A DNA stretch of 48,684 bases from a virus (IMGVR_UViG_2923302340_000001), one strand, 5' to 3'. Positions 17,499 to 39,034 are shown, counted from the stretch's first letter. Made by a program: numbers and translations. The notes: generated by a model not told the origin, from the sequence alone.

Positions 17499-17662
17499 GG
17501 TGATAGTTCCCTTAAAGGTTAAGGATACTCACCACCGTCTGGTTCCAATCATTGGGTGGTGAGACGTACAGGGTTGGAACTACCGGTCACCATGGAATCC
17601 GGCGAGTCTTACGACTCCCCCGCACGCCCCACCATAATTTGGGTGTAGCAGTGCTTTACGCA

Positions 17663-17683
17663 TAAAAAAACCGCTAACGCGGT
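17663..17683 (-). terminator. candidate intrinsic terminator (minus strand)
   Basis: ACCGC-TAAC-GCGGT followed on the minus strand by T7. Confidence 0.4.
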
Positions 17684-17828
17684 ATGCGCCATGATGATTA
17701 TCGGGGTTCCAATCCCGACCGTAGATTTTGCTACGGCTCGGAAAGTGTCCACCAATGGCGCATTCATGTCAATACGGCGGGATTTTAACAGAGACAACCA
17801 CATAGCGTGGGTTTATTGGTAGGCAGAA

Positions 17829-17857: not shown

Positions 17858-18234
17858 CTTTCGTGCTGATCGGATTCGCGGTCCTTTCAGCATTACGTTG
17901 TTGTATAAATACAACCACGCAAGCACAAACAGCGATCATATTCTTACCCAACTGAATAAAATTGTCCAAATAAATTTGGTTTATTAGAGCACAAAAGCGA
18001 GTGATTTTTGTGGTGTGTATTTAAGTTGATGAAAAACAATATGTTTTTATCCCTTCATTATGAAGGGGCTGCGGTGTAACATTACGCGGGGCCTTTTCGC
18101 CGATTCGCAACCGGGCACCGACTTTCAGGAAAGGATTATCCACTTGCCGTACCACGCAGGCACAAACAGCGTGCTTGCTCTCGCGTCATTTTCGTCGGTG
18201 GGGATGCCGTGAAACGGCCTGTAAGGGCCACACA

Positions 18235-18357
18235 ATGAAAAAATACTACATGTGTATTTTTATCGTTGTTACTGGAGCTTTGTTTACGCCACATGGGGAG
18301 GGTTGGAAGATTACTGATAACGCTCTGAATGTGACGATAAACATTAGCAGCAAGTAG
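18235..18357 (+). CDS. small hydrophobic peptide (40 aa)
   Basis: MKKYYMCIFIVVTGALF...; followed by a strong terminator. Confidence 0.2.
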   Translation: MKKYYMCIFIVVTGALFTPHGEGWKITDNALNVTINISSK

Positions 18358-18362
18358 CGATT

Positions 18363-18386
18363 AGGCCCCTTCGGGGGCTTTTTTTA
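18363..18386 (+). terminator. intrinsic terminator
   Basis: AGGCCCC-TTCG-GGGGC followed by T7. Confidence 0.6.
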
Positions 18387-18899: not shown

Positions 18900-19568
18900 T
18901 TACGCGGCAGTAGTCAGAGCCTCAAGCTGATTGATAATCCCCTGGATAACATCGTCTGCCTTTTTGCGTGGCGCAACGTATGAACACTCAATGAGGCTTA
19001 AGCCCTTATCCTGAGCTTTGCTCAGAGCTGGCTTGTGGGGAATGTACTTATCGACAACAAAGTATGGCGTATTAGCCAGGTACTCTTGGGCTTCGATGTA
19101 GTCAGCTTCGTTTTCAGCCGCGCCGGAAAACACCATGCAAATTTTCTTGATTGGTACACCCTTTTTAACGATGCCGTGAGCAGTGTTAACGGTGGTTTCC
19201 AGGTCATCGGTAGAGAATCGGGTTGGCAAAATAACCATATCCAGAAATTCAGATAGCTTCGGTACTGATTCAGATGCGTAGGCACCGCCATCAACGATAA
19301 CCAGGTCGTATACTTCTGATTCGATGATTTTCTGGACTTGTGATGGCGTGCCGCACGGCTGCGCCGCGATTGCAGGTTCGATATTGTTGGCCATTCTGCG
19401 TTGTACCCAACGCGTTACCGTTCCGTTAAGCACATCCATATCGATCAGGCATACATTCCAGCCAGCCTTTGCATAAGCAACTGCTAAAGCACGAGCAATG
19501 GTTGATTTGGTTACGCCGCCTTTTCCGTTGAAAATACCTACAGATATAGTCATTTGTCGAGACTCCAT
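18900..19568 (-). CDS. parA: ParA/ParF-type partition ATPase
   Basis: Deviant Walker A GIFNGKGGVTKST; 222 aa (alternative start 19553). Confidence 0.8.
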   Translation of the reverse strand: MESRQMTISVGIFNGKGGVTKSTIARALAVAYAKAGWNVCLIDMDVLNGTVTRWVQRRMANNIEPAIAAQPCGTPSQVQKIIESEVYDLVIVDGGAYASESVPKLSEFLDMVILPTRFSTDDLETTVNTAHGIVKKGVPIKKICMVFSGAAENEADYIEAQEYLANTPYFVVDKYIPHKPALSKAQDKGLSLIECSYVAPRKKADDVIQGIINQLEALTTAA

Positions 19569-29692: not shown

Positions 29693-29768
29693 GGCCCCTT
29701 AGCTTAGTGGTTAGAGCAGGCGACTCATAATCGCACGGTCATCGGTTCAAATCCGGTAGGGGCCACCA
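29693..29768 (+). tRNA. tRNA with anticodon CAU (Met, or lysidine-modified Ile2 type)
   Basis: 76-nt cloverleaf: acceptor stem GGCCCCU/AGGGGCC, T-loop TTCAAAT, anticodon loop CTCATAA, encoded 3' CCA. Confidence 0.85.
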
Positions 29769-30076: not shown

Positions 30077-30664
30077 ATGGAGGCAATTGCATTGTTTAAT
30101 CTGATTTATGCAGATCCCCCCTGGGAATACAAAGATAAGTGTAAGGATGGGAATCGTGGAGCTGGTTTTAAGTATCCAACGATGAAAGCTGAGGATATTG
30201 CTCGTATTCCTGTCTGGCAGCTTGCTAATCCTGAATCGTGTTTGTTGGCCATGTGGTGGGTTCCGACTCAGCCAGAAGAAGCGTTGCTGGTGGTGAAAGC
30301 ATGGGGATTCAGGCTTATGACCATGAAGGGCTTCACATGGAACAAATGTGGTAGCCGACAACCAGATAAGCTGGTGATGGGGATGGGGCATATGACTCGT
30401 GCAAACAGTGAAGATTGCTTGTTTGCGGTAAAAGGCAAATTGCCGACCCGCCTTGATGCGGGGATCATTCAGTCGTTTACATCGCCTCGTCTGGAGCATT
30501 CTCGGAAGCCTGATGTGGTTCGTGACAAGCTGGTAAGGCTGTTAGGTGATGTTCCTCGTATTGAGCTGTTTGCTCGCGGTGATTTACCTGATGGTTGGCA
30601 TGGCTGGGGCAACCAGTGCAATGGAGGTATCCAGTTGCATGATGCTCTCTGGCAAGTGGCATAG
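30077..30664 (+). CDS. DNA adenine methyltransferase, MT-A70-like
   Basis: N-terminal ...IYADPPWEYKDK... (DPPW motif). Confidence 0.65.
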   Translation: MEAIALFNLIYADPPWEYKDKCKDGNRGAGFKYPTMKAEDIARIPVWQLANPESCLLAMWWVPTQPEEALLVVKAWGFRLMTMKGFTWNKCGSRQPDKLVMGMGHMTRANSEDCLFAVKGKLPTRLDAGIIQSFTSPRLEHSRKPDVVRDKLVRLLGDVPRIELFARGDLPDGWHGWGNQCNGGIQLHDALWQVA

Positions 30665-31955: not shown

Positions 31956-32041
31956 TTGGTCGATTAAAATGAGGCATAAATAAAACAATGTGTCTTTTTT
32001 AAAGGTTGTGTAACATTTGCGTTCCATTTAAGGAGGGTAAA

Positions 32042-32449
32042 ATGCGCACCGATCTAGATTATCTAAAAAAGATGCTGACTGTGTTTTTGGATTCAGAAAG
32101 CACGTTCATAACAGTAAATCAACTAAGAGATGCGGGGTTTGATATAGCCTCAGAAAAGGGCATGTTTCATTATATGCAATTGATTGAGCAAGGTTTTATC
32201 AGCAATATGAAGATGGAAACGCGTGATCCTCTGCGTCTTGGCTATGTTAATTCCTTTGCAGGAATGAGGACTGTTGATGTAGATATTAGATTGACTACAG
32301 AGGGACAGGATTTTGCCTGTGCACTAGAGAGCAAAGATGTTTTCGCTAGACTAAAAGAAATTAGCAATGAGCCATTGGCTGTTATGAAGGATGTTGGTGT
32401 AGAACTTCTCAAGTCATTGGCAAAGAAGAAGTTTGGTTTATCTGATTAG
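32042..32449 (+). CDS. hypothetical protein
   Basis: AAGGAGG 6 nt upstream of ATG 32042 (track start 32006 less likely). Confidence 0.35.
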   Translation: MRTDLDYLKKMLTVFLDSESTFITVNQLRDAGFDIASEKGMFHYMQLIEQGFISNMKMETRDPLRLGYVNSFAGMRTVDVDIRLTTEGQDFACALESKDVFARLKEISNEPLAVMKDVGVELLKSLAKKKFGLSD

Positions 32450-32477
32450 TGCAGATACCTGTTTGCTATTTATTTAT

Positions 32478-32507
32478 AAAACCACCTGCGGGTGGTTTTG
32501 TTTTTTA
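32478..32507 (+). terminator. intrinsic terminator
   Basis: AAACCACC-TGCG-GGTGGTTT followed by TGTTTTTT. Confidence 0.6.
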
Positions 32508-32740: not shown

Positions 32741-33364
32741 ATGACAAAACATCTTAATGTGGTTTCTTTACCACTTTCTGTGTTGATTGGTTATGAAAAG
32801 AACGCTCGCACACACTCCGTGGAGCAGGTAGATCAGATTGTTGCCAGCATACAGGAGTACGGATGGACTAATCCGATCCTGATAGACGAGAACAATGTTG
32901 TAATTGCTGGTCATGGTCGAATTGCTGCGGCCACTCAGTTGGGGATGGATGATGTTCCCTGCATTGTTCTGGAAGGGCTAACGGAGAATCAGAAGAAGGC
33001 ATATCGTCTGGCCGACAACCGTATTCCGCTGAATGCTGGTTGGGATGAAGAGTTGTTAAGCGCGGAGCTTGCAGATCTTGCGGCCGATGATTTTGCTCTG
33101 GACTCAATTGGTTTTACTCAGCGCGAACTGGATAACTTATTGAGTGCGGCGGTCTACGATGACACAGAGGGTATGGATATCCCATTTGAGAAGGATGAGG
33201 CCAAATCAGGCGTAAAAGTTCAGTACCTGTCATTTGGAGGTCATAAAATCCCGGCAACGGATGAGGAAGCGGATCGTTTTGACTGCGCGGTGTCTCGTTA
33301 TGTTGATGATAATGGCAGCTATATCGGATTTGTATCCGCATTGCTGGCTGGGGAGGTGTGCTGA
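32741..33364 (+). CDS. ParB-like nuclease-domain protein
   Basis: ...ILIDENNVVIAGHGRIAAA...; paralogue of 36031..36621. Confidence 0.55.
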   Translation: MTKHLNVVSLPLSVLIGYEKNARTHSVEQVDQIVASIQEYGWTNPILIDENNVVIAGHGRIAAATQLGMDDVPCIVLEGLTENQKKAYRLADNRIPLNAGWDEELLSAELADLAADDFALDSIGFTQRELDNLLSAAVYDDTEGMDIPFEKDEAKSGVKVQYLSFGGHKIPATDEEADRFDCAVSRYVDDNGSYIGFVSALLAGEVC

Positions 33365-34737
33365 TGCTTCACCTGAATTACGACATAACGCACCTACGCG
33401 GCGCGGAATATAACCCGCGTTTTATCGGTGAGGATGATCTTGCGAGGCTGGCGGAAAGTGTCAGGGAGCTGGGGCTTGTGAAGCCATTGATAGTGCGCGG
33501 CGATTTGCTGGTGGCGGGACACCAAAGGACGAAGGCGCTACGTAAGTTGGGAATAACGCGTGCTGCGGTGTATGTGTTGCCCTGTGAAACGACGGTATAC
33601 GATGAAGTACGGTTTAACCAACTGCATAACGGAACGGATTTTGATAGCGGAGATGAGCGTTGCAGGGTGTCCGGTCTGGAAGATAAGCATGGTTTTGTTC
33701 AGGTATCGGCAAGCCAGATCTCAGGCAATATGCGCGCGAAAATGGCATATGTTCGAAAGAACATAGCGGAACTGGTTATCAAGTATGGTCCGTGGGGTGG
33801 TTGTGTTGCTACTCAGTCTGGCGAGGTTATTCACTGTGCTCAGTATGCATTAGCAGCGAAGATGACGCGCACACCGCTAACGGTGTTTGTGATCCCTGAT
33901 GTTGAGAAGGAAAAATACCAAAGTTATCTGAATAAAACTTATGGTGTATTTGAGTATTCTCATCTGGAGAAAACAACATACATCCAGACGTATGCGCAGC
34001 TTATGCGGTTGCGTAATGGTGGCAGCCTGAAATCAAACCTGTATGAGTCGTTGATCCTCCCGATCATTGCCAAGACGCCAAGAGGAATTGATTTTGGTTC
34101 GGGGCAGGGAGACTACGCGCGAATGCTCAGGGCAAAGGGATATAACCTGCATGATCTTGAGCTTTTTCGCCGTAAGGGCGCTGGAAACACTCTGGATAGG
34201 GCTGCAACAAACCGAATGATTGATACGCTGGTGGACGACTTAAAAACGCGAGGGCGTTACGACTACGTGATTTGCGATAGCGTTTTGAACTCGGTCGATA
34301 GTGTCGAGGCTGAATGGTCCGTTCTGACGGTTCTGAAAGGCCTGTGTAAAGCTGGTGGGTCAATATTCTTTTCTGGCCGTAGCCGTGGAGAGCTGGAGAG
34401 TGTGCTTAAACGAACGCAAGCTGCTAGCTCTATAAGCCGGCTTTATTTTATTGACCATAACGGTTTTTCTGCTTTGTACCGGAAGGGACACTGGTTTTAT
34501 CAGAAGTTCCATTCTGATGAGGAAGTGAAGCAATTGTGCCGTGAGCATAGCTTCAGAATAAAGCGGTCGGTATTTAACGGTAAGAGCTGGTATTTGCACG
34601 TTATTAACGATGATTCTCTTCGCTGGGAGAGTCTGGAGAAAGCTGTTCATTTTGAGTTTGAGTTGCCGTTGCCTGGCGGTTCAACAATCGGACGATCTGA
34701 TGATGTGCTGGCGGCTTTCCGGCCGTTGATTAAGTAG
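33358..34737 (+). CDS. fusion protein: ParB-like N-terminal domain plus class I SAM-methyltransferase-like C-terminal domain
   Basis: ...LIVRGDLLVAGHQRTKA... then GIDFGSGQGDYARML (motif I-like), ...YDYVICDSVLNS..., ...GGSIFFSG... Confidence 0.5.
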   Translation: MLMLHLNYDITHLRGAEYNPRFIGEDDLARLAESVRELGLVKPLIVRGDLLVAGHQRTKALRKLGITRAAVYVLPCETTVYDEVRFNQLHNGTDFDSGDERCRVSGLEDKHGFVQVSASQISGNMRAKMAYVRKNIAELVIKYGPWGGCVATQSGEVIHCAQYALAAKMTRTPLTVFVIPDVEKEKYQSYLNKTYGVFEYSHLEKTTYIQTYAQLMRLRNGGSLKSNLYESLILPIIAKTPRGIDFGSGQGDYARMLRAKGYNLHDLELFRRKGAGNTLDRAATNRMIDTLVDDLKTRGRYDYVICDSVLNSVDSVEAEWSVLTVLKGLCKAGGSIFFSGRSRGELESVLKRTQAASSISRLYFIDHNGFSALYRKGHWFYQKFHSDEEVKQLCREHSFRIKRSVFNGKSWYLHVINDDSLRWESLEKAVHFEFELPLPGGSTIGRSDDVLAAFRPLIK

Positions 34738-34753
34738 TGTGTAGGAGGCGCTG

Positions 34754-35473
34754 GTGGCTGACAGAATTGAGATAAAGATGGATTTTTCTTCTCAGGATAT
34801 TCAACGACAACTCCAGCGCCTTGAAGAACGCGAATTGCCATTCGCAATGGCGCTTGCGGCAACCAGAACGGCAAAGGCTTCTCAGGCTGCGATTAAGAAT
34901 GAAATTAATCGGGTATTTGACAGGCCCACGCCGTGGATTCAGAACTCTACTTACGTTTTGGCCGCAAAGAAGAGTGATCCTACAGCCATTGTGTATGCTC
35001 GTGAATGGGGAGGAACGCCAGCCCCTGTAACGTTGACTCCGCAAATCGAAGGTGGCCAACGACAGTACAAACGCTCAGAAGGGGCGCTAAGGGCTGGTGG
35101 ATATTTGCCTAACGGCTGGCAGCTTGCTCCTGGTCCCGGCGCAAAGCTGGACAAATACGGGAATATTTCGCGGGGGCAATTACAGCAGGTCTTATCTGGC
35201 CTAAGAGTTCAGCGAGATGCGCATCAAAATCGCCGTCAGGGCAAGCCTACGGAGTTTTTTGTTGTTCGACCTGGTACAAGTAACCCGCTTCAACCAGGCG
35301 TCTGGCAGCGCGTTGGGCGGCGTCCTACGTTGATCCTTACGTTCATTCAGCAACCTAACTATTCGCAGCGTCTTGATTGGCATGGCGTGGCACTGCGTGC
35401 TGGTGAGGATGCGTTTGCTGATGAAGTCACAAAGGCTATTGATGACATTCTTTCTAAGACCTTCTCTCGTTAA
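34754..35473 (+). CDS. hypothetical protein
   Basis: 239 aa; Gly/Pro/Gln-rich central region. Confidence 0.3.
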   Translation: MADRIEIKMDFSSQDIQRQLQRLEERELPFAMALAATRTAKASQAAIKNEINRVFDRPTPWIQNSTYVLAAKKSDPTAIVYAREWGGTPAPVTLTPQIEGGQRQYKRSEGALRAGGYLPNGWQLAPGPGAKLDKYGNISRGQLQQVLSGLRVQRDAHQNRRQGKPTEFFVVRPGTSNPLQPGVWQRVGRRPTLILTFIQQPNYSQRLDWHGVALRAGEDAFADEVTKAIDDILSKTFSR

Positions 35474-35774
35474 TCATCGTGTGGTTGATGGTGTTGTTAT
35501 GCAGAGTGTATTCACTGTGTTCTGTAGCGTCGCTCGCTGGCTGTCTGTGGGGGAGCACGAGCATCGTTTCATCGTCCGGCAGAATTGGGTCCTTCTGGCC
35601 AAAAGCGTTGGATGCGGGTCATTCGAACCCCGATGTTCGGCTAGCTAAACGTGAAAAAAGTTAGGTTAAAAGTTGCGGTAAAAGAAATTTACTCATCTCA
35701 TTGAAAAATATCGGGAAAACGTGATTTTTTGCTGTATTTGTGCTGGTAAAAAGAAAGTAGGAAATTTTCTTTTA

Positions 35775-35959
35775 GATCATCAAGATACGCGCAGATCTTT
35801 AACCAATGTGATGTTGTTCTGATAAAAATCGTTATAAATCATGCAAATACATCCGATCTTTTAACCAAAACACCATCGCAAGATCCTTTTTACTTATAAA
35901 AACTTAATAAAATCAGATAATTATGCTGGTTTGTGTGATTTTTTATGAGTAAAAAGATC
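35775..35959. repeat. GATC-dense AT-rich region with repeated GATCTTT(T)AACC
   Basis: 5 GATC in 185 bp (35775, 35794, 35855, 35882, 35956); GATCTTTAACC at 35794 and GATCTTTTAACC at 35855. Confidence 0.5.
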
Positions 35960-36030
35960 GTCATTTTTCTCTTTTAGTATCAATAAGTTAAACAGTTTTC
36001 TTTAACCTGTTGTGTTATGGCGGTTAAAAA

Positions 36031-36621
36031 ATGGCTCTAAAAATCGAATATTTACCAGTCGGTAAGCTGCTCAGATATGCCAAAAATTCACGGACTCATT
36101 CAGATGAGCAAGTTGAACAGTTGGTGAACAGTATCCGTGAGTTCGGTTTCACTAATCCTGTGCTGATCGATGAAAAGAATGAACTGATTGCGGGGCATGG
36201 TCGGCTTGCAGCAGCCGAAATTCTGGAAATGGATAAAGTTCCGGCGATTCGGTTGAGTAACCTTTCTGAAAAACAGAAGAAGGCTTACAGGATTGCAGAT
36301 AACAAGCTGGCCTTAAATGCTGGTTGGGATATGCAGCTTCTGGCCGAAGAAGTCAAAGAGTTAATGGATGATGATTTTGATATTGATCTGCTTGGGTTTA
36401 ATGATGCAGAGCTTGACGAAATGTTAAGCGATGAACAGCCGCAGGAAGAAGACGATAATTCTTCCCCTGTTGTTCAAATTAAGTACCTGGCTATTGATAA
36501 AGAACGTATTCCCGCGACGGATATGGAAATTGCATTGTTGCTGGATGTTTATCGTCAGTACCACGACGCGCATGAAACGCATGAGGGATTTGTTCAGTAT
36601 CTTGCTAATGGTTGCAAGTAA
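36031..36621 (+). CDS. ParB-like nuclease-domain protein (paralogue)
   Basis: ...VLIDEKNELIAGHGRLAAA...; overlaps start of terminase small subunit. Confidence 0.55.
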   Translation: MALKIEYLPVGKLLRYAKNSRTHSDEQVEQLVNSIREFGFTNPVLIDEKNELIAGHGRLAAAEILEMDKVPAIRLSNLSEKQKKAYRIADNKLALNAGWDMQLLAEEVKELMDDDFDIDLLGFNDAELDEMLSDEQPQEEDDNSSPVVQIKYLAIDKERIPATDMEIALLLDVYRQYHDAHETHEGFVQYLANGCK

Positions 36622-37172
36622 TGGCCATCGTCAGTAAGTCAGAGTTTGCCCGCCGGAAAGGTATTTCTCCGGCAATGGTTACGAAGCTCTGTCGTTCCGG
36701 TCGCATTCCAGTGCTGAAAAGCGGCAAGCTGGATTTTGATAAAGCCAGTGCGGCTTATGAAGCGAGCCGACAGGTTGGTCGTGAGGTATCTGCTGAAAAT
36801 GGAAAAAGAGGGCATGGGATATCTTCGGAACAACCAGAGTTACCCGCTGATGATGCCGGATTAGCTGGTGGTACTTCCGGTGTTGCGGTGCAATTCAACA
36901 AGGCTAAGACCGCAGAAAAAATTTATCAGGCAAAGCTGAAACGCCTTGAATTTGAAGAAAAGGAAGGCTCTCTCATCGCTAAAGATGCGGTCAGGGATGA
37001 TGCATTTCTGGCAGCTAATGAATTGCGTAGCCGCTTATTTAGTATTGCTCCAAGAGCAGCTCCCCGTTGTGAAGGCAAAACAGCCAGGGAGATCGAACGC
37101 ATTATTGAAGACGAGATTAATTTTGCGCTTCAGGCGCTCCAGGAATCCCGATTTATTAAGCAGGAAGAATAA
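36612..37172 (+). CDS. terminase small subunit (Nu1-like)
   Basis: 186 aa; N-terminal HTH-like segment; immediately upstream of large subunit. Confidence 0.5.
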   Translation: MQVMAIVSKSEFARRKGISPAMVTKLCRSGRIPVLKSGKLDFDKASAAYEASRQVGREVSAENGKRGHGISSEQPELPADDAGLAGGTSGVAVQFNKAKTAEKIYQAKLKRLEFEEKEGSLIAKDAVRDDAFLAANELRSRLFSIAPRAAPRCEGKTAREIERIIEDEINFALQALQESRFIKQEE

Positions 37173-37177
37173 ACCTC

Positions 37178-39034
37178 ATGGGCGAAACAGTATGGAGCAC
37201 CGCTTTTTTCCGTGCGCTTCGCCCTAAATCACGGCTAACTGTTTCCGAATGGGCTGATAAGTATCGTCATGTAGCGCCGGGAACGTCTCCAGAGCCAGGG
37301 CCGTGGCGTACAAGCCGAGTGCCATATTTGCGTGAACCAATGGATGTTATTGGTGACGCTGATACAGAAACAGTAGTGATGCAATGTAGCTCGCAAATTG
37401 GTAAATCCGAATTACAGCTAAATGTTATGGGTTACTTTGCAGATCAGGAGCCATCTCCTCAGTTGATGATTTATCCAACGGTAGAGGCGGCTGAGGCTTT
37501 TTCAAAGGAGCGTATTGATCCGACGTTCAAATATTCCCCTGGTTTAAAACACAAGCTGCATGAAGGGAAAGAGGGGCGCGGTGCAGCCAAAAAGTCCAGC
37601 ACGACTATACGTATGAAGCATTACGCTGGTGGATATATAGCACTTGTTGGTGCTAATTCCCCAGCAGGTCTTGCATCCAGGCCAATTCGAATACTGTTAG
37701 CTGATGAGATTGATCGTTACGGTGTGACGCAGGAGGGCGACCCACTAAAACTAGGTATTCAGCGTACTACCAACTTTCATAATCGTAAGAAAGTTTTTGT
37801 TTCTACTCCTGTTTTGGAGGAAACGAGCAAAATCCACAAGTGGTTTAAGCTCTCCGATCAGCGTTACTACCATGTTCCTTGCCCATGTTGTGGCACCATG
37901 CAGGTGATGAAATGGTCGCAAGTCAGATGGGATAAGAGCGATTCAGGTGAGGCGTTACCGGAAACGGCCAGATATGAGTGCTGTGAGTGCGGCGGGATTA
38001 TGCGCGGATCTGGTAAACCAGACGTTGATTGGTTGGCGAAGGGGGTATGGATAGCTGAACATACTGGAGTTAAAGGTATTGTTGGTTTTCATATTAACAG
38101 TCTTTACTCCCCGTGGGTTGCATTGTCAGAGCTGGTTGAAGAATTTACGGAAGCAACCAGAAACCGCGATAAAAATGGATTAATGGAGTTTATTAACCTT
38201 AAGCTGGGTGAGCCATGGAAAGAGGATGCTAAAGACGATATCGATCCTGAATACTTGTTGCAACGCAGAATAAGGTTTGAAGAGTTTTTACCAGATGATG
38301 TTTTATTGTTAAGTGCTGGTGTTGACGTACAGGACACGTATTTAGTTTGTGAATTGGTCGGTTGGGGAAAAGGTAAGGAGTCATGGGGGATAGAATATAA
38401 AATATTCCCAGGTGATCCCGCACAAGATGTTGTCTGGAAACAACTTGATGAATACTTACTCCGTAGCTGGTCATTCCGTGACGGTCGAAAATTACAGATT
38501 TCTTCCGTTTGTATTGACTCTGGTGGGCATTTTACGACAGAGGTATATCGCTTTACTAAGCCGAGAGAATCAAGGCGAATATACTCTATCAGGGGGCGTG
38601 GTGGGGTAGGTTTACCATTTATAGGAAAGCCAAGTAATAATAACCGTGTGGGTGCTATGTTGTTTAATTTGGGGGTTGATGATGGTAAAGGGACCATCAT
38701 GGCAAGAATTAAACTACATGATCCTGGTCCTGGTTATATGCATTTCCCATTAGATTCTGACAGAGGATATGATACCGAATACTTTAAAGGATTATTATCA
38801 GAGAAGAAAATATTTGAATATAAAAATGGGCAGACAAAAGAAAAGTGGGTGAAAGTCTACGAGCGTAACGAGCCTCTTGATTGCCGTAACTATGCAACTG
38901 CCGCGATGGAAATTCTGAACCCTAATTTTAACTGGCTTGCCGAACAGGAAATGCGAGGTAATGTGTATGTGCAGAACTCGTCAGGTATACGTAGAAGACG
39001 CCGTAGAGTTATAAGTAAAGGCGTAAACATATAG
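37178..39034 (+). CDS. terminase large subunit (lambda gpA-like)
   Basis: 618 aa; ...LTVSEWADKYRHVAPG... and overall architecture of gpA family. Confidence 0.85.
   Translation: MGETVWSTAFFRALRPKSRLTVSEWADKYRHVAPGTSPEPGPWRTSRVPYLREPMDVIGDADTETVVMQCSSQIGKSELQLNVMGYFADQEPSPQLMIYPTVEAAEAFSKERIDPTFKYSPGLKHKLHEGKEGRGAAKKSSTTIRMKHYAGGYIALVGANSPAGLASRPIRILLADEIDRYGVTQEGDPLKLGIQRTTNFHNRKKVFVSTPVLEETSKIHKWFKLSDQRYYHVPCPCCGTMQVMKWSQVRWDKSDSGEALPETARYECCECGGIMRGSGKPDVDWLAKGVWIAEHTGVKGIVGFHINSLYSPWVALSELVEEFTEATRNRDKNGLMEFINLKLGEPWKEDAKDDIDPEYLLQRRIRFEEFLPDDVLLLSAGVDVQDTYLVCELVGWGKGKESWGIEYKIFPGDPAQDVVWKQLDEYLLRSWSFRDGRKLQISSVCIDSGGHFTTEVYRFTKPRESRRIYSIRGRGGVGLPFIGKPSNNNRVGAMLFNLGVDDGKGTIMARIKLHDPGPGYMHFPLDSDRGYDTEYFKGLLSEKKIFEYKNGQTKEKWVKVYERNEPLDCRNYATAAMEILNPNFNWLAEQEMRGNVYVQNSSGIRRRRRRVISKGVNI

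What the first reader, a model, noticed from the sequence alone, without database searches (positions are those of the whole stretch)
32741..36621. Three ParB-like nuclease-domain proteins, one fused to a SAM-methyltransferase-like domain, directly upstream of the terminase
Paralogous ParB-like proteins at 32741..33364 and 36031..36621 flank a 459-aa ParB-like/methyltransferase fusion (motif I-like GIDFGSGQG, DYVICD) and a 239-aa unknown protein. The MTase-like domain does not show the DPPY/DPPW motif of the amino-methyltransferases (unlike the MT-A70-like gene at 30077), so its substrate is unclear. Candidate packaging-coupled DNA modification or anti-restriction module; I cannot assign it to a described system from sequence alone.
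Basis: partly seen in the sequence, partly recalled or inferred. Interest (0 to 1): 0.6.

Follow-up and report, generated by a model that had tools for sequence, protein, structure and literature searches.

The report
Phage ParB-partnered methyltransferase cassette beside terminase
A phage-plasmid of E. coli carries, next to its DNA-packaging genes, a widely conserved gene pair of untested function (a small ParB-like protein plus a ParB-like protein fused to a methyltransferase) that most likely modifies nucleic acid late in infection.

Summary

The "module" is not one unit.

- **A+B is the conserved core.** In 61 of 62 viral loci with upstream sequence, a ~200-aa A-like gene ends within 1 kb upstream of the B homologue, usually overlapping it. 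The same holds in genomes from more than 8 phyla. A large terminase of one of four families is usually the next big gene.
- **C belongs to a separate family** that sits just upstream of terS in unrelated cos phages.
- **A probable 12-nt cos site (35617-35628) separates C from D.**
- **D is a 48%-identical paralogue of A**, translationally coupled to TerS.

B matches PHROG 5475 (function unknown). Its ParB-Methyltransf_23 architecture was catalogued in 2025 as phage-enriched and untested. A's predicted layout (nucleotide-binding domain, helices, disordered linker, C-terminal domain, no HTH) mirrors the ParB activators of phage thymine dioxygenases described in 2026.

Best reading (about 0.4): an NTP-gated, ParB-partnered methyltransferase acting on replicated phage DNA before packaging. 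The substrate is unproven, because the nearest folds are small-molecule and tRNA methyltransferases.

The parts
32476..32501 (+). Intrinsic-terminator-like hairpin (11-bp stem plus T run) between the DUF2513 gene and gene A. It marks the upstream edge of the A-B-C transcription unit.
32741..33364 (+). Gene A: 207-aa small ParB/Srx protein. Layout: nucleotide-binding domain (residues 1-95, box II AGHGR at 32906-32920), helical segment (103-138), disordered linker (138-158), conserved C-terminal beta-beta-alpha-alpha domain (161-202). No HTH. It is the conserved partner of B.
33358..34737 (+). Gene B: 459 aa from the GTG at 33358, or 457 aa from the ATG at 33364, which overlaps A's TGA by 1 nt. 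It is a ParB/Srx-methyltransferase fusion. Residues 1-95 form the ParB/Srx domain (AGHQR at 33514-33528). Residues 96-232 form a conserved middle alpha/beta region (FNQLHNGTD at 33613-33639). Residues 233-459 form a class I SAM methyltransferase (motif I at 34084-34110, E268 in ELFRR at 34159-34173, DYVICD at 34261-34278, NSVD at 34288-34299). Full-length member of PHROG 5475.
34754..35473 (+). Gene C: 239-aa protein of phrog_1924 (labelled 'minor tail protein'), with no Pfam or PDB sequence match. It is the last gene before the probable cos site. Its family sits immediately upstream of terS in Pseudomonas phages F10 and LESphi2, Sinorhizobium phi2LM21 and Paracoccus Psul1. It is not part of the conserved A-B cassette.
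35588..35672 (.). The most conserved block of the C-D intergenic gap across relatives whose B proteins are 90% and 69% identical. It contains the probable cohesive-end site.
35617..35628 (.). Candidate 12-nt cohesive end GGTCATTCGAAC. The record of Yersinia phage vB_YpM_39 (and 41) breaks at 35616|35617, and that of vB_YpM_44 at 35628|35629.
   Evidence: inference; the termini were not measured here
35738..35902 (+). Three direct repeats TTGTNCTGNTAAAAA at ~75-nt spacing, inside the window's densest GATC cluster (5 in 250 nt). Possibly cosB-like or regulatory sites between cos and gene D.
   Evidence: weak statistics
36031..36621 (+). Gene D: 196-aa paralogue of A (48% identity, same domain layout, AGHGR at 36190-36204). 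It is the first gene after the probable cos site. Its stop overlaps the terS ATG (TAATG).
36612..37172 (+). Small terminase subunit (phrog_57). The likely start is the ATG at 36621.
37178..39034 (+). Large terminase subunit, lambda GpA type (GpA_ATPase plus GpA_nuclease).

Best explanation
A and B form a two-gene, late-expressed modification system, and C, cos and D-TerS-TerL are neighbouring packaging-region elements.

B is the enzyme: a class I SAM methyltransferase carrying its own ParB/Srx nucleotide-binding domain. A is a small dimeric ParB-like partner with a nucleotide-binding domain, a flexible linker and a C-terminal domain, but no DNA-binding HTH. D is its paralogue.

The proposed mechanism is that NTP (probably ATP) binding at the ParB-type pockets drives A-B engagement on double-stranded DNA. 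This holds or activates the methyltransferase on replicated phage DNA shortly before the terminase packages it, so that virion DNA (or a site on it) carries a methyl mark. It would parallel the way ParB proteins activate phage thymine dioxygenases.

Shown here: the folds, the intact SAM motifs, the retained box II arginine, the obligate gene pairing, and the linkage to terminase genes.

Inferred: the A-B physical interaction, the dependence on NTP, DNA as the substrate, and the timing.
For: - **Pairing.** An A-like gene ends within 1 kb upstream of B in 61 of 62 viral loci, and 54 of those 61 overlap or lie within 20 nt. The same pairing appears in genomes of Gamma- and Alphaproteobacteria, Bacillota, Planctomycetota, Myxococcota, Chloroflexota, Chlorobiota, Bacteroidota and Kiritimatiellota and in Bacteroides phage BS-TP3.
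- **Terminase linkage.** Pfam TerL hits among the first large ORFs downstream of B in 49 viral loci: GpA 16, Terminase_6 ~16, Terminase_3 5, TerL_ATPase/nuclease type 3, about 40 in all. In 19 genome loci the count is about 10.
- **DNA connection.** The first ~150 residues of A and D match the N-terminal domain of phage ParB-N6/N4 DNA methyltransferases: PADLOC MTase_II E 6e-38 and 2e-40, phrog_498 E ~1e-51, and tblastn hits under 'DNA methylase' features. One such fusion nicks DNA non-specifically (PMC3592412; PMC5512222).
- **Partner architecture.** The A model has a nucleotide-binding domain, helices, a disordered linker and a C-terminal domain, with no HTH. This matches the ParB activators of phage T-dioxygenases, which are needed on dsDNA and co-occur with terminases (PMC13229309).
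- **Nucleotide binding.** ParB-SAM-methyltransferase fusions bound ATP in vitro (PMC12704722).
- **Operon structure.** The A stop and B start overlap (TGATG), and there is a terminator upstream of A.
Against: - B has no DPPY-type motif and no recognisable target-recognition domain.
- No DNA-binding domain was found in A, B or D.
- The ParB catalytic Glu is replaced by His (GHxR), so the nucleotide chemistry may differ from that of ParB clamps.
- The phage already encodes an MT-A70 DNA methyltransferase.
- A Brochothrix phage homologue (27% identity) lacks the small partner and lies 4.3 kb from terS.
- No experiment on this family's activity was found.
Confidence: 0.4

Rival explanations
1. B methylates a non-DNA target such as tRNA or another RNA, a nucleotide or signalling molecule, or a small metabolite. 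The ParB/Srx domains would act as nucleotide-binding, kinase-like or sensor modules. Possible roles include anti-defence or tuning of host metabolism late in infection.
For: - The best structural matches are tRNA and small-molecule methyltransferases.
- ParB folds are often fused to RNA-related domains (PMC12704722).
- Conservation of 33-62% identity across more than 8 phyla points to a universal substrate.
- B usually coexists with canonical DNA methyltransferases.
Against: - Tight positional linkage to terminase genes of four families is hard to explain for a metabolic enzyme.
- The ParB subfamily of the partner is the one fused to DNA methyltransferases.
- Anti-defence genes are more often expressed early than late.
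Confidence: 0.25
2. The ParB-like proteins are packaging accessory nucleases or nickases that help the terminase cut or mature cos or pac. This would apply to D above all, and possibly to A and the N-domain of B. They would play the role that HNH endonucleases play in HK97-like phages, with the methyltransferase domain secondary or regulatory.
For: - D is the first gene after the probable cos site and is translationally coupled to terS.
- Stand-alone homologues are often gene 1 or the last gene of phage genomes.
- A ParB-methyltransferase fusion has nicking activity and sits next to terS in a B. cereus prophage (PMC3592412).
- HNH genes occupy the same position in other phages (PMC3592412).
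Against: - The cassette accompanies both cos-type (GpA) and headful-type (Terminase_6, Terminase_3) terminases, which have their own nuclease domains.
- The strict conservation of the SAM-binding motifs in B argues that catalysis by the methyltransferase is the selected function.
- Nuclease activity of ParB domains is non-specific where it has been tested.
Confidence: 0.15
3. The ParB-like proteins serve plasmid partition or KorB-like silencing for the phage-plasmid state.
For: - The element is a low-copy circular phage-plasmid.
- ParB-fold proteins can act as clamps and repressors (PMC13229309).
Against: - A, B and D have no HTH and score below the TIGR00180 cut-off.
- Box II is GHxR rather than GERR.
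- The ParA gene lies 13 kb away on the other strand at 18900-19568. In the ATCC 25922 plasmid record a small (82-aa) gene follows its ParA.
- The same cassette occurs in integrated prophages and in phages without ParA.
Confidence: 0.04

Closest known systems
ParB-CTPase-fold / Methyltransf_23 (PF13489) fusion proteins of phages, catalogued by Kaljevic et al. 2025 (PMC12704722); equivalent to PHROG 5475
   Same: Same two Pfam domains in the same order. B matches PHROG 5475 over its full length at E 1e-260. The architecture is enriched in phages and prophages. ParB-SAM-methyltransferase fusions bound ATP through the box II arginine, which B retains as R57.
   Different: The published survey lists the fusion but gives no activity, substrate, partner or genomic rule. 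The obligate small ParB partner and the terminase adjacency shown here are not described there. I could not confirm that the tested proteins are orthologues of B.
ParB-dependent thymine dioxygenases (5mYOX176/ParB176) of phages, O'Toole et al. 2026 (PMC13229309)
   Same: A small phage ParB-like protein with a nucleotide-binding domain, short helices, a disordered linker and a C-terminal domain, but no DNA-binding domain, is encoded next to a post-replicative modifying enzyme. That system also frequently co-occurs with terminase genes.
   Different: The enzyme here is a SAM methyltransferase that carries its own ParB domain, not a TET/JBP dioxygenase. No dioxygenase is present in the window. 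A, B and D have GHxR where the published ParBs largely keep the CTP-binding and hydrolysis residues. Activation by A is inferred, not shown.
Phage ParB-N6/N4 DNA methyltransferase fusions (phrog_498; PADLOC MTase_II PDLC03229; B. cereus Bce_0392)
   Same: A and D share their first ~150 residues with the N-terminal domain of these enzymes (E 1e-38 to 1e-52). They are often encoded next to terS and terL. The ParB domain of one member nicks DNA.
   Different: In those proteins the ParB domain is fused to a PF01555 amino-methyltransferase with a (D/S)PP(Y/F) motif. Here the ParB domain of that type stands alone (A, D), and the methyltransferase (B) belongs to a different class I subfamily without that motif.
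HNH endonucleases next to cos and terminase (HK97 gp74 type)
   Same: A small accessory gene occupies the position flanking cos, immediately beside terS and terL.
   Different: There is no HNH motif and the fold is different. A role in cos cleavage is untested.

Membership tests
Canonical partition ParB (ParABS) | ParB N-terminal CTPase fold | tested here: met
Canonical partition ParB (ParABS) | Box II GERRxR with the catalytic Glu | tested here: not met
   A and D have AGHGR and B has AGHQR. Only the last Arg is retained.
Canonical partition ParB (ParABS) | Central HTH DNA-binding domain, and a whole-protein TIGR00180 score above the cut-off | tested here: not met
   TIGR00180 scores of 16-40 bits against a cut-off of 58.45. 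The AF2 model of A shows no HTH.
Canonical partition ParB (ParABS) | Adjacent parA gene | tested here: not met
   ParA lies at 18900-19568 on the minus strand, 13 kb away.
PHROG 5475 / ParB-CTPase-Methyltransf_23 fusion | Full-length match to the family profile | tested here: met
   E 1.2e-260, residues 3-459 against profile positions 1-457 of 458. There are 239 clusters at 50% identity with E<=1e-30, almost all 450-490 aa.
PHROG 5475 / ParB-CTPase-Methyltransf_23 fusion | PF02195 followed by PF13489 in one polypeptide | tested here: met
   Methyltransf_23 scores above its cut-off. ParB_N scores 24.3 bits, just below its cut-off of 26.3.
Class I SAM-dependent methyltransferase | Rossmann-like methyltransferase fold | tested here: met
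Class I SAM-dependent methyltransferase | Motif I GxGxG, and an acidic residue after beta-2 | tested here: met
   D245-F-G-S-G-Q-G and E268 are invariant in 32 homologues.
Class I SAM-dependent methyltransferase | Methyl transfer activity | not testable with these tools
   Needs a biochemical assay.
DNA amino-methyltransferases (N6A/N4C; PF01555, MT-A70) | (D/N/S)PP(Y/F/W) catalytic motif | tested here: not met
   A regular-expression search finds none in B. The MT-A70 control has DPPW.
DNA amino-methyltransferases (N6A/N4C; PF01555, MT-A70) | Match to the family profiles over the methyltransferase domain | tested here: not met
   The PADLOC MTase_II and phrog_498 matches cover only the ParB part of B (residues 8-75).
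ParB-activated phage DNA-modifying enzymes (5mYOX/ParB type) | Small ParB with a nucleotide-binding domain and a C-terminal domain but no DNA-binding domain | tested here: met
   AF2 model of A. The C-terminal domain motif is conserved across phyla.
ParB-activated phage DNA-modifying enzymes (5mYOX/ParB type) | Adjacent TET/JBP dioxygenase | tested here: not met
   The neighbour is a methyltransferase. There is no TET/JBP hit in the Pfam scan of eight ORFs between 30077 and 39034.
ParB-activated phage DNA-modifying enzymes (5mYOX/ParB type) | Enzyme activity depends on the cognate ParB | not testable with these tools
   Needs co-expression and in vitro assays.
Lambda gpZ / Minor_tail_Z (for gene C) | Significant profile match to PF06763 or to lambda Z | tested here: inconclusive
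   Pfam E 0.089 in 1 of 7 family members. hhalign against lambda Z gives probability 25% over 67 N-terminal columns.
HNH terminase-accessory endonuclease | HNH/zinc-binding catalytic motif | tested here: not met
   No HNH Pfam hit in A, B, C or D.

The most novel reading that the evidence does not exclude
The A-B cassette installs a so far undescribed, NTP-dependent methyl modification on phage DNA. The target could be a base position, the backbone or a DNA end that classical amino or C5 methyltransferases do not touch. The ParB/Srx pockets might chemically activate the target, or they might clamp the enzyme onto DNA ahead of the terminase. Either way it would be a new class of packaging-linked phage DNA modification shared by phages of many bacterial phyla.
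Probability: 0.12. Interest if true: 0.85.

Novelty: new variant of a known kind. Interest (0 to 1): 0.52.

Why it matters
ParB-fold proteins have only recently been recognised as nucleotide-gated partners of enzymes other than the partition machinery. So far one class of phage DNA-modifying enzyme, the thymine dioxygenases, has been shown to depend on them.

This cassette would be a second case with different chemistry. It is conserved at 33-62% identity from Enterobacteria to Bacteroidota, Chloroflexota and Planctomycetota, and it almost always sits beside the terminase genes.

It also occurs in a tractable setting. The ~48-kb phage-plasmid of E. coli ATCC 25922 and 72 other complete E. coli genomes carries it. 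The questions of what it methylates, whether A activates B, and whether it protects packaged DNA can therefore be answered directly with knock-outs, co-expression and mass spectrometry.

If the substrate is not DNA, the result would still assign a function to a widespread phage gene family of unknown function.

Tried and rejected
- **Internal duplication in B.** I suspected the middle region of B (residues 101-232) was a second, degenerate ParB/Srx repeat. hhalign of the two halves gave probability 0.6%, so there is no sequence support.
- **RHH-type C-terminal domain in A and D.** I suspected a ribbon-helix-helix DNA-binding domain. A profile of the C-terminal domain found nothing significant in the PDB (best E 0.046, a 19-residue stretch). 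AF2 predicts a beta-hairpin plus two helices rather than beta-alpha-alpha. The idea was dropped as unproven.
- **Partition function.** Rejected; see the membership test.
- **PADLOC defence models.** They matched only the ParB parts.
- **Solved structures for C.** None found, by single sequence or by profile. The 'minor tail protein Z' label could not be confirmed.
- **AlphaFold-DB fold search.** The library was unavailable.
- **Literature gaps.** Iyer et al. 2013 (ParB in DNA hypermodification clusters) is not held. Searches for the related Yersinia and E. coli phages returned nothing about their termini or these genes.
- **GATC cluster in the C-D gap.** It is the densest in the window but only marginally beyond chance genome-wide.
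- **Promoter upstream of A.** No sigma-70-like promoter was found there.
Full report

**The replicon.** The window is about 98% identical to the ~48-kb circular plasmids found in 73 complete E. coli genomes, including ATCC 25922, and to Yersinia phages vB_YpM_39, 41 and 44. The annotated ATCC 25922 record shows a myovirus-type phage-plasmid with RepA, ParA, lysis genes, a P2-like tail and a lambda-like head and terminase. The window's own ParA lies at 18900-19568 on the minus strand, 13 kb from gene A. The three ParB-like proteins are therefore not the partition ParB.

**Operon anatomy.** An intrinsic-terminator-like hairpin (32476-32501) precedes A. A's TGA overlaps an ATG of B at 33364 (TGATG), with a GGGGAGG box upstream. 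RefSeq and the database cluster use this 457-aa form. C starts 17 nt after B, behind an AGGAGG box. D's TAA overlaps the terS ATG (TAATG). There are therefore two tightly coupled blocks, A-B-C and D-TerS-TerL, separated by a 557-nt non-coding gap.

In 32 homologues sharing 44-72% identity, the following residues are invariant:
- ParB box II, G54-H55-Q56-R57
- a middle-region block, F86-N-Q-x-H-N-G-T-D94
- methyltransferase motif I, D245-F-G-x-G
- E268
- D307-x-V-x-N-S-V-D314

B matches PHROG 5475 ('unknown function') over its full length at E 1e-260. An exhaustive HMMER scan of 1.84 billion cluster representatives finds 239 clusters at E<=1e-30, nearly all 450-490 aa long with full-length alignment. 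This is a compact family with a fixed architecture.

**A and D: structure and family.** AF2 of A (pLDDT 77.5) predicts four parts: a ParB/Srx domain (1-93), a helical segment (103-138), a disordered linker (138-158, pLDDT below 50) and a small C-terminal domain (beta-hairpin 161-172, then helices 174-191 and 197-202). No HTH is present. The C-terminal motif YLxF..KIPxTxEE..L..YVxENG..GFVxxLL is conserved in partners from Proteobacteria to Bacteroidota. It has no significant match in the PDB. The first ~150 residues of A and D are the same domain found at the N-terminus of phage ParB-N6/N4 DNA methyltransferases (PADLOC MTase_II E 6e-38 and 2e-40, phrog_498 E ~1e-51). This domain also occurs in hundreds of stand-alone 'ParB-like nuclease domain' genes, many of them lying near an end of the phage record. 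Box II reads GHGR. The phosphate-binding Arg is kept, but the Glu that hydrolyses CTP in ParB is replaced by His.

**What is conserved.** Scanning IMG/VR with the B alignment gave 77 loci. Of 62 with at least 650 nt upstream of B, 61 have an A-like gene ending within 1 kb upstream, and 54 of those overlap B or lie within 20 nt. The first large ORF downstream of B carried a Pfam terminase large-subunit domain in about 40 of 49 loci, spread over four families: GpA 16, Terminase_6 ~16, Terminase_3 5, and the TerL_ATPase/TerL_nuclease type 3.

A scan of one genome per species found the same pair in many phyla at 33-62% identity. These include Lelliottia, Serratia, Pantoea, Alphaproteobacteria, Bacillota, Pirellulaceae, Myxococcales, Chloroflexota, Chlorobiaceae, Bacteroidota and Kiritimatiellae. 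About 10 of 19 of the next large ORFs there were TerL. Bacteroides phage BS-TP3 has the arrangement ParB(196 aa)-B(473 aa)-TerS-TerL with no gaps. A Brochothrix phage homologue (27% identity) lacks the small partner and lies 4.3 kb from terS. C and D accompany B only in close relatives of the window. Extra small ParB copies recur elsewhere (L037, L039, L064, L103, L118, L128).

**Gene C.** C has no Pfam, NCBIfam, PADLOC or PDB match. PHROG labels its family 'minor tail protein'. Support for homology with lambda gpZ is weak: Pfam E 0.089 in 1 of 7 members, and hhalign probability 25%. Its position, however, is conserved. It is the last gene of the linear genome of Pseudomonas phage F10, whose terS is the first gene at the other end of the record. 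It lies immediately before terS in LESphi2 and Paracoccus Psul1, and just upstream of the terL-adjacent gene in Sinorhizobium phi2LM21. None of these has A or B at that spot. C is thus an independent family that lies next to cos and terminase.

**Probable cos.** The record of vB_YpM_39 (and 41) breaks at window 35616|35617, and that of vB_YpM_44 at 35628|35629. That is a 12-nt offset (GGTCATTCGAAC), and it falls inside the best-conserved block of the gap (35588-35672) in relatives whose B proteins are 90% and 69% identical. This is what a 12-nt cohesive end would produce, and it fits a GpA terminase. It remains an inference from deposited records. If correct, A-B-C are the last genes of virion DNA and D-TerS-TerL the first. 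They are contiguous only in the circular or plasmid form. Between cos and D lie three 15-nt direct repeats at ~75-nt spacing and the window's densest GATC cluster, which carry only marginal statistical weight.

**Literature.** Four papers bear on this.
- Kaljevic et al. 2025 (PMC12704722) list ParB-CTPase-Methyltransf_23 among the fusions enriched in phages and prophages. They call the activity 'predicted DNA methyltransferase', suggest anti-defence, and report ATP binding for ParB-SAM-methyltransferase fusions. A phage Methyltransf_23 fusion and its pocket mutant are in their construct list. No substrate or partner is given.
- O'Toole et al. 2026 (PMC13229309) show that a phage ParB with a nucleotide-binding domain and a C-terminal domain, but no DNA-binding domain, activates its cognate thymine dioxygenase on dsDNA. 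These systems co-occur with terminases in 19% of contigs.
- Xu et al. 2012 (PMC3592412) report a prophage ParB-methyltransferase next to terS that has non-specific nicking activity.
- Iyer et al. 2017 (PMC5512222) summarise ParB domains as NTP-regulated DNases.

No paper found addresses the A-B pair.

**Mechanism.** The best-supported reading (about 0.4) is that B is an NTP-gated methyltransferase and that A is its ParB-type partner, recruiting or activating it on replicated phage DNA just before packaging. D would be a second copy of A tied to the terminase. The folds, motifs, pairing and terminase linkage are shown here. The A-B interaction, the use of nucleotide, DNA as the substrate and the timing are inferred. 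The main weakness is that the methyltransferase resembles small-molecule and tRNA enzymes and has no recognisable DNA-recognition element. A non-DNA substrate is therefore a serious rival (0.25). A packaging-accessory nickase role, mainly for D, comes next (0.15). Plasmid partition is essentially excluded (0.04).

**Novelty.** B is a new member of a catalogued but uncharacterised family. What is not in the literature I could search is the system-level picture: an obligate small ParB partner, linkage to four terminase families across many phyla, and a partner architecture matching the ParB activators of phage dioxygenases. I therefore rate it as a new variant of a known kind, namely ParB-associated phage nucleic-acid-modifying enzymes. 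It is of moderate interest and is directly testable in E. coli.

Noticed in passing
window 35588-35672 (core 35617-35628): The records of three near-identical Yersinia phages break 12 nt apart (35616|35617 and 35628|35629), inside the most conserved block of the C-D gap. This suggests a 12-nt cohesive end, GGTCATTCGAAC. It would place A-B-C at the right end of virion DNA and D-TerS-TerL at the left end.
   Followed up: partly
window 35738-35902 and 35771-36020: Three direct repeats TTGTNCTGNTAAAAA lie at ~75-nt spacing between the probable cos site and gene D. The same stretch holds the densest GATC cluster of the whole window (5 in 250 nt, against 0.7 expected). vB_YpM_44 lacks ~90 nt of this region. 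They may be cosB-like or Dam-sensitive sites, but the statistics are marginal.
   Followed up: partly
window 17552-17639 (-), 17664-17737 (-), 18087-18385 (+): Rfam matches above the gathering score to C4 antisense RNA (P1/P7-type immunity), the isrK Hfq-binding RNA and the ryfA RNA. This points to a P1-like immunity region in this phage-plasmid.
   Followed up: no
window 29693-29768 (+): A tRNA gene with anticodon CAT. ARAGORN calls it tRNA-Met, while RefSeq annotates the equivalent gene in the ATCC 25922 plasmid as tRNA-Ile, which would require lysidine modification.
   Followed up: no
L114 761-4960; L117 4536-9561; L108 5938-9119; L111 2381-5292; L115 439-3281: Chloroflexota genomes (Kouleothrix, Oscillochloris, Viridilinea and other Chloroflexales) carry two or three tandem full-length paralogues of B, flanked by several small ParB-like genes. 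This suggests diversification of specificity.
   Followed up: no
L002-L004 9936-17196 (Bradyrhizobium prophage): Between the B homologue and a Terminase_3 gene lie genes for two GGACT/AIG2-like cyclotransferases, an Amidoligase_2, an MTS/N6_Mtase-like protein and a DUF6283 protein. The set is reminiscent of peptide or amino-acid ligation chemistry used in base hypermodification.
   Followed up: no
L112 5694-8896: 2.5 kb downstream of a B homologue is a protein of at least 1066 aa combining an N6_Mtase/Eco57I-type methylase with an SNF2/ResIII helicase. This architecture resembles the P1 DarB anti-restriction protein, as far as I recall it.
   Followed up: partly
L086 4858-5601; L092 2375-3118; L090 2372-3118; L091 2378-3097: The gene C family (phrog_1924) sits just upstream of the terminase genes in unrelated Pseudomonas, Sinorhizobium and Paracoccus phages: directly before the annotated terS in LESphi2 and Psul1, and as the last gene of the linear F10 genome. 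This is a conserved position for a protein of unknown function whose 'minor tail protein' label rests on weak similarity.
   Followed up: partly
window 32006-32449 versus L001: The DUF2513 gene just upstream of the terminator and of A is present in only some of the near-identical E. coli plasmids. Many matches begin at query position 509, so it is a variable cargo slot next to the cassette.
   Followed up: no
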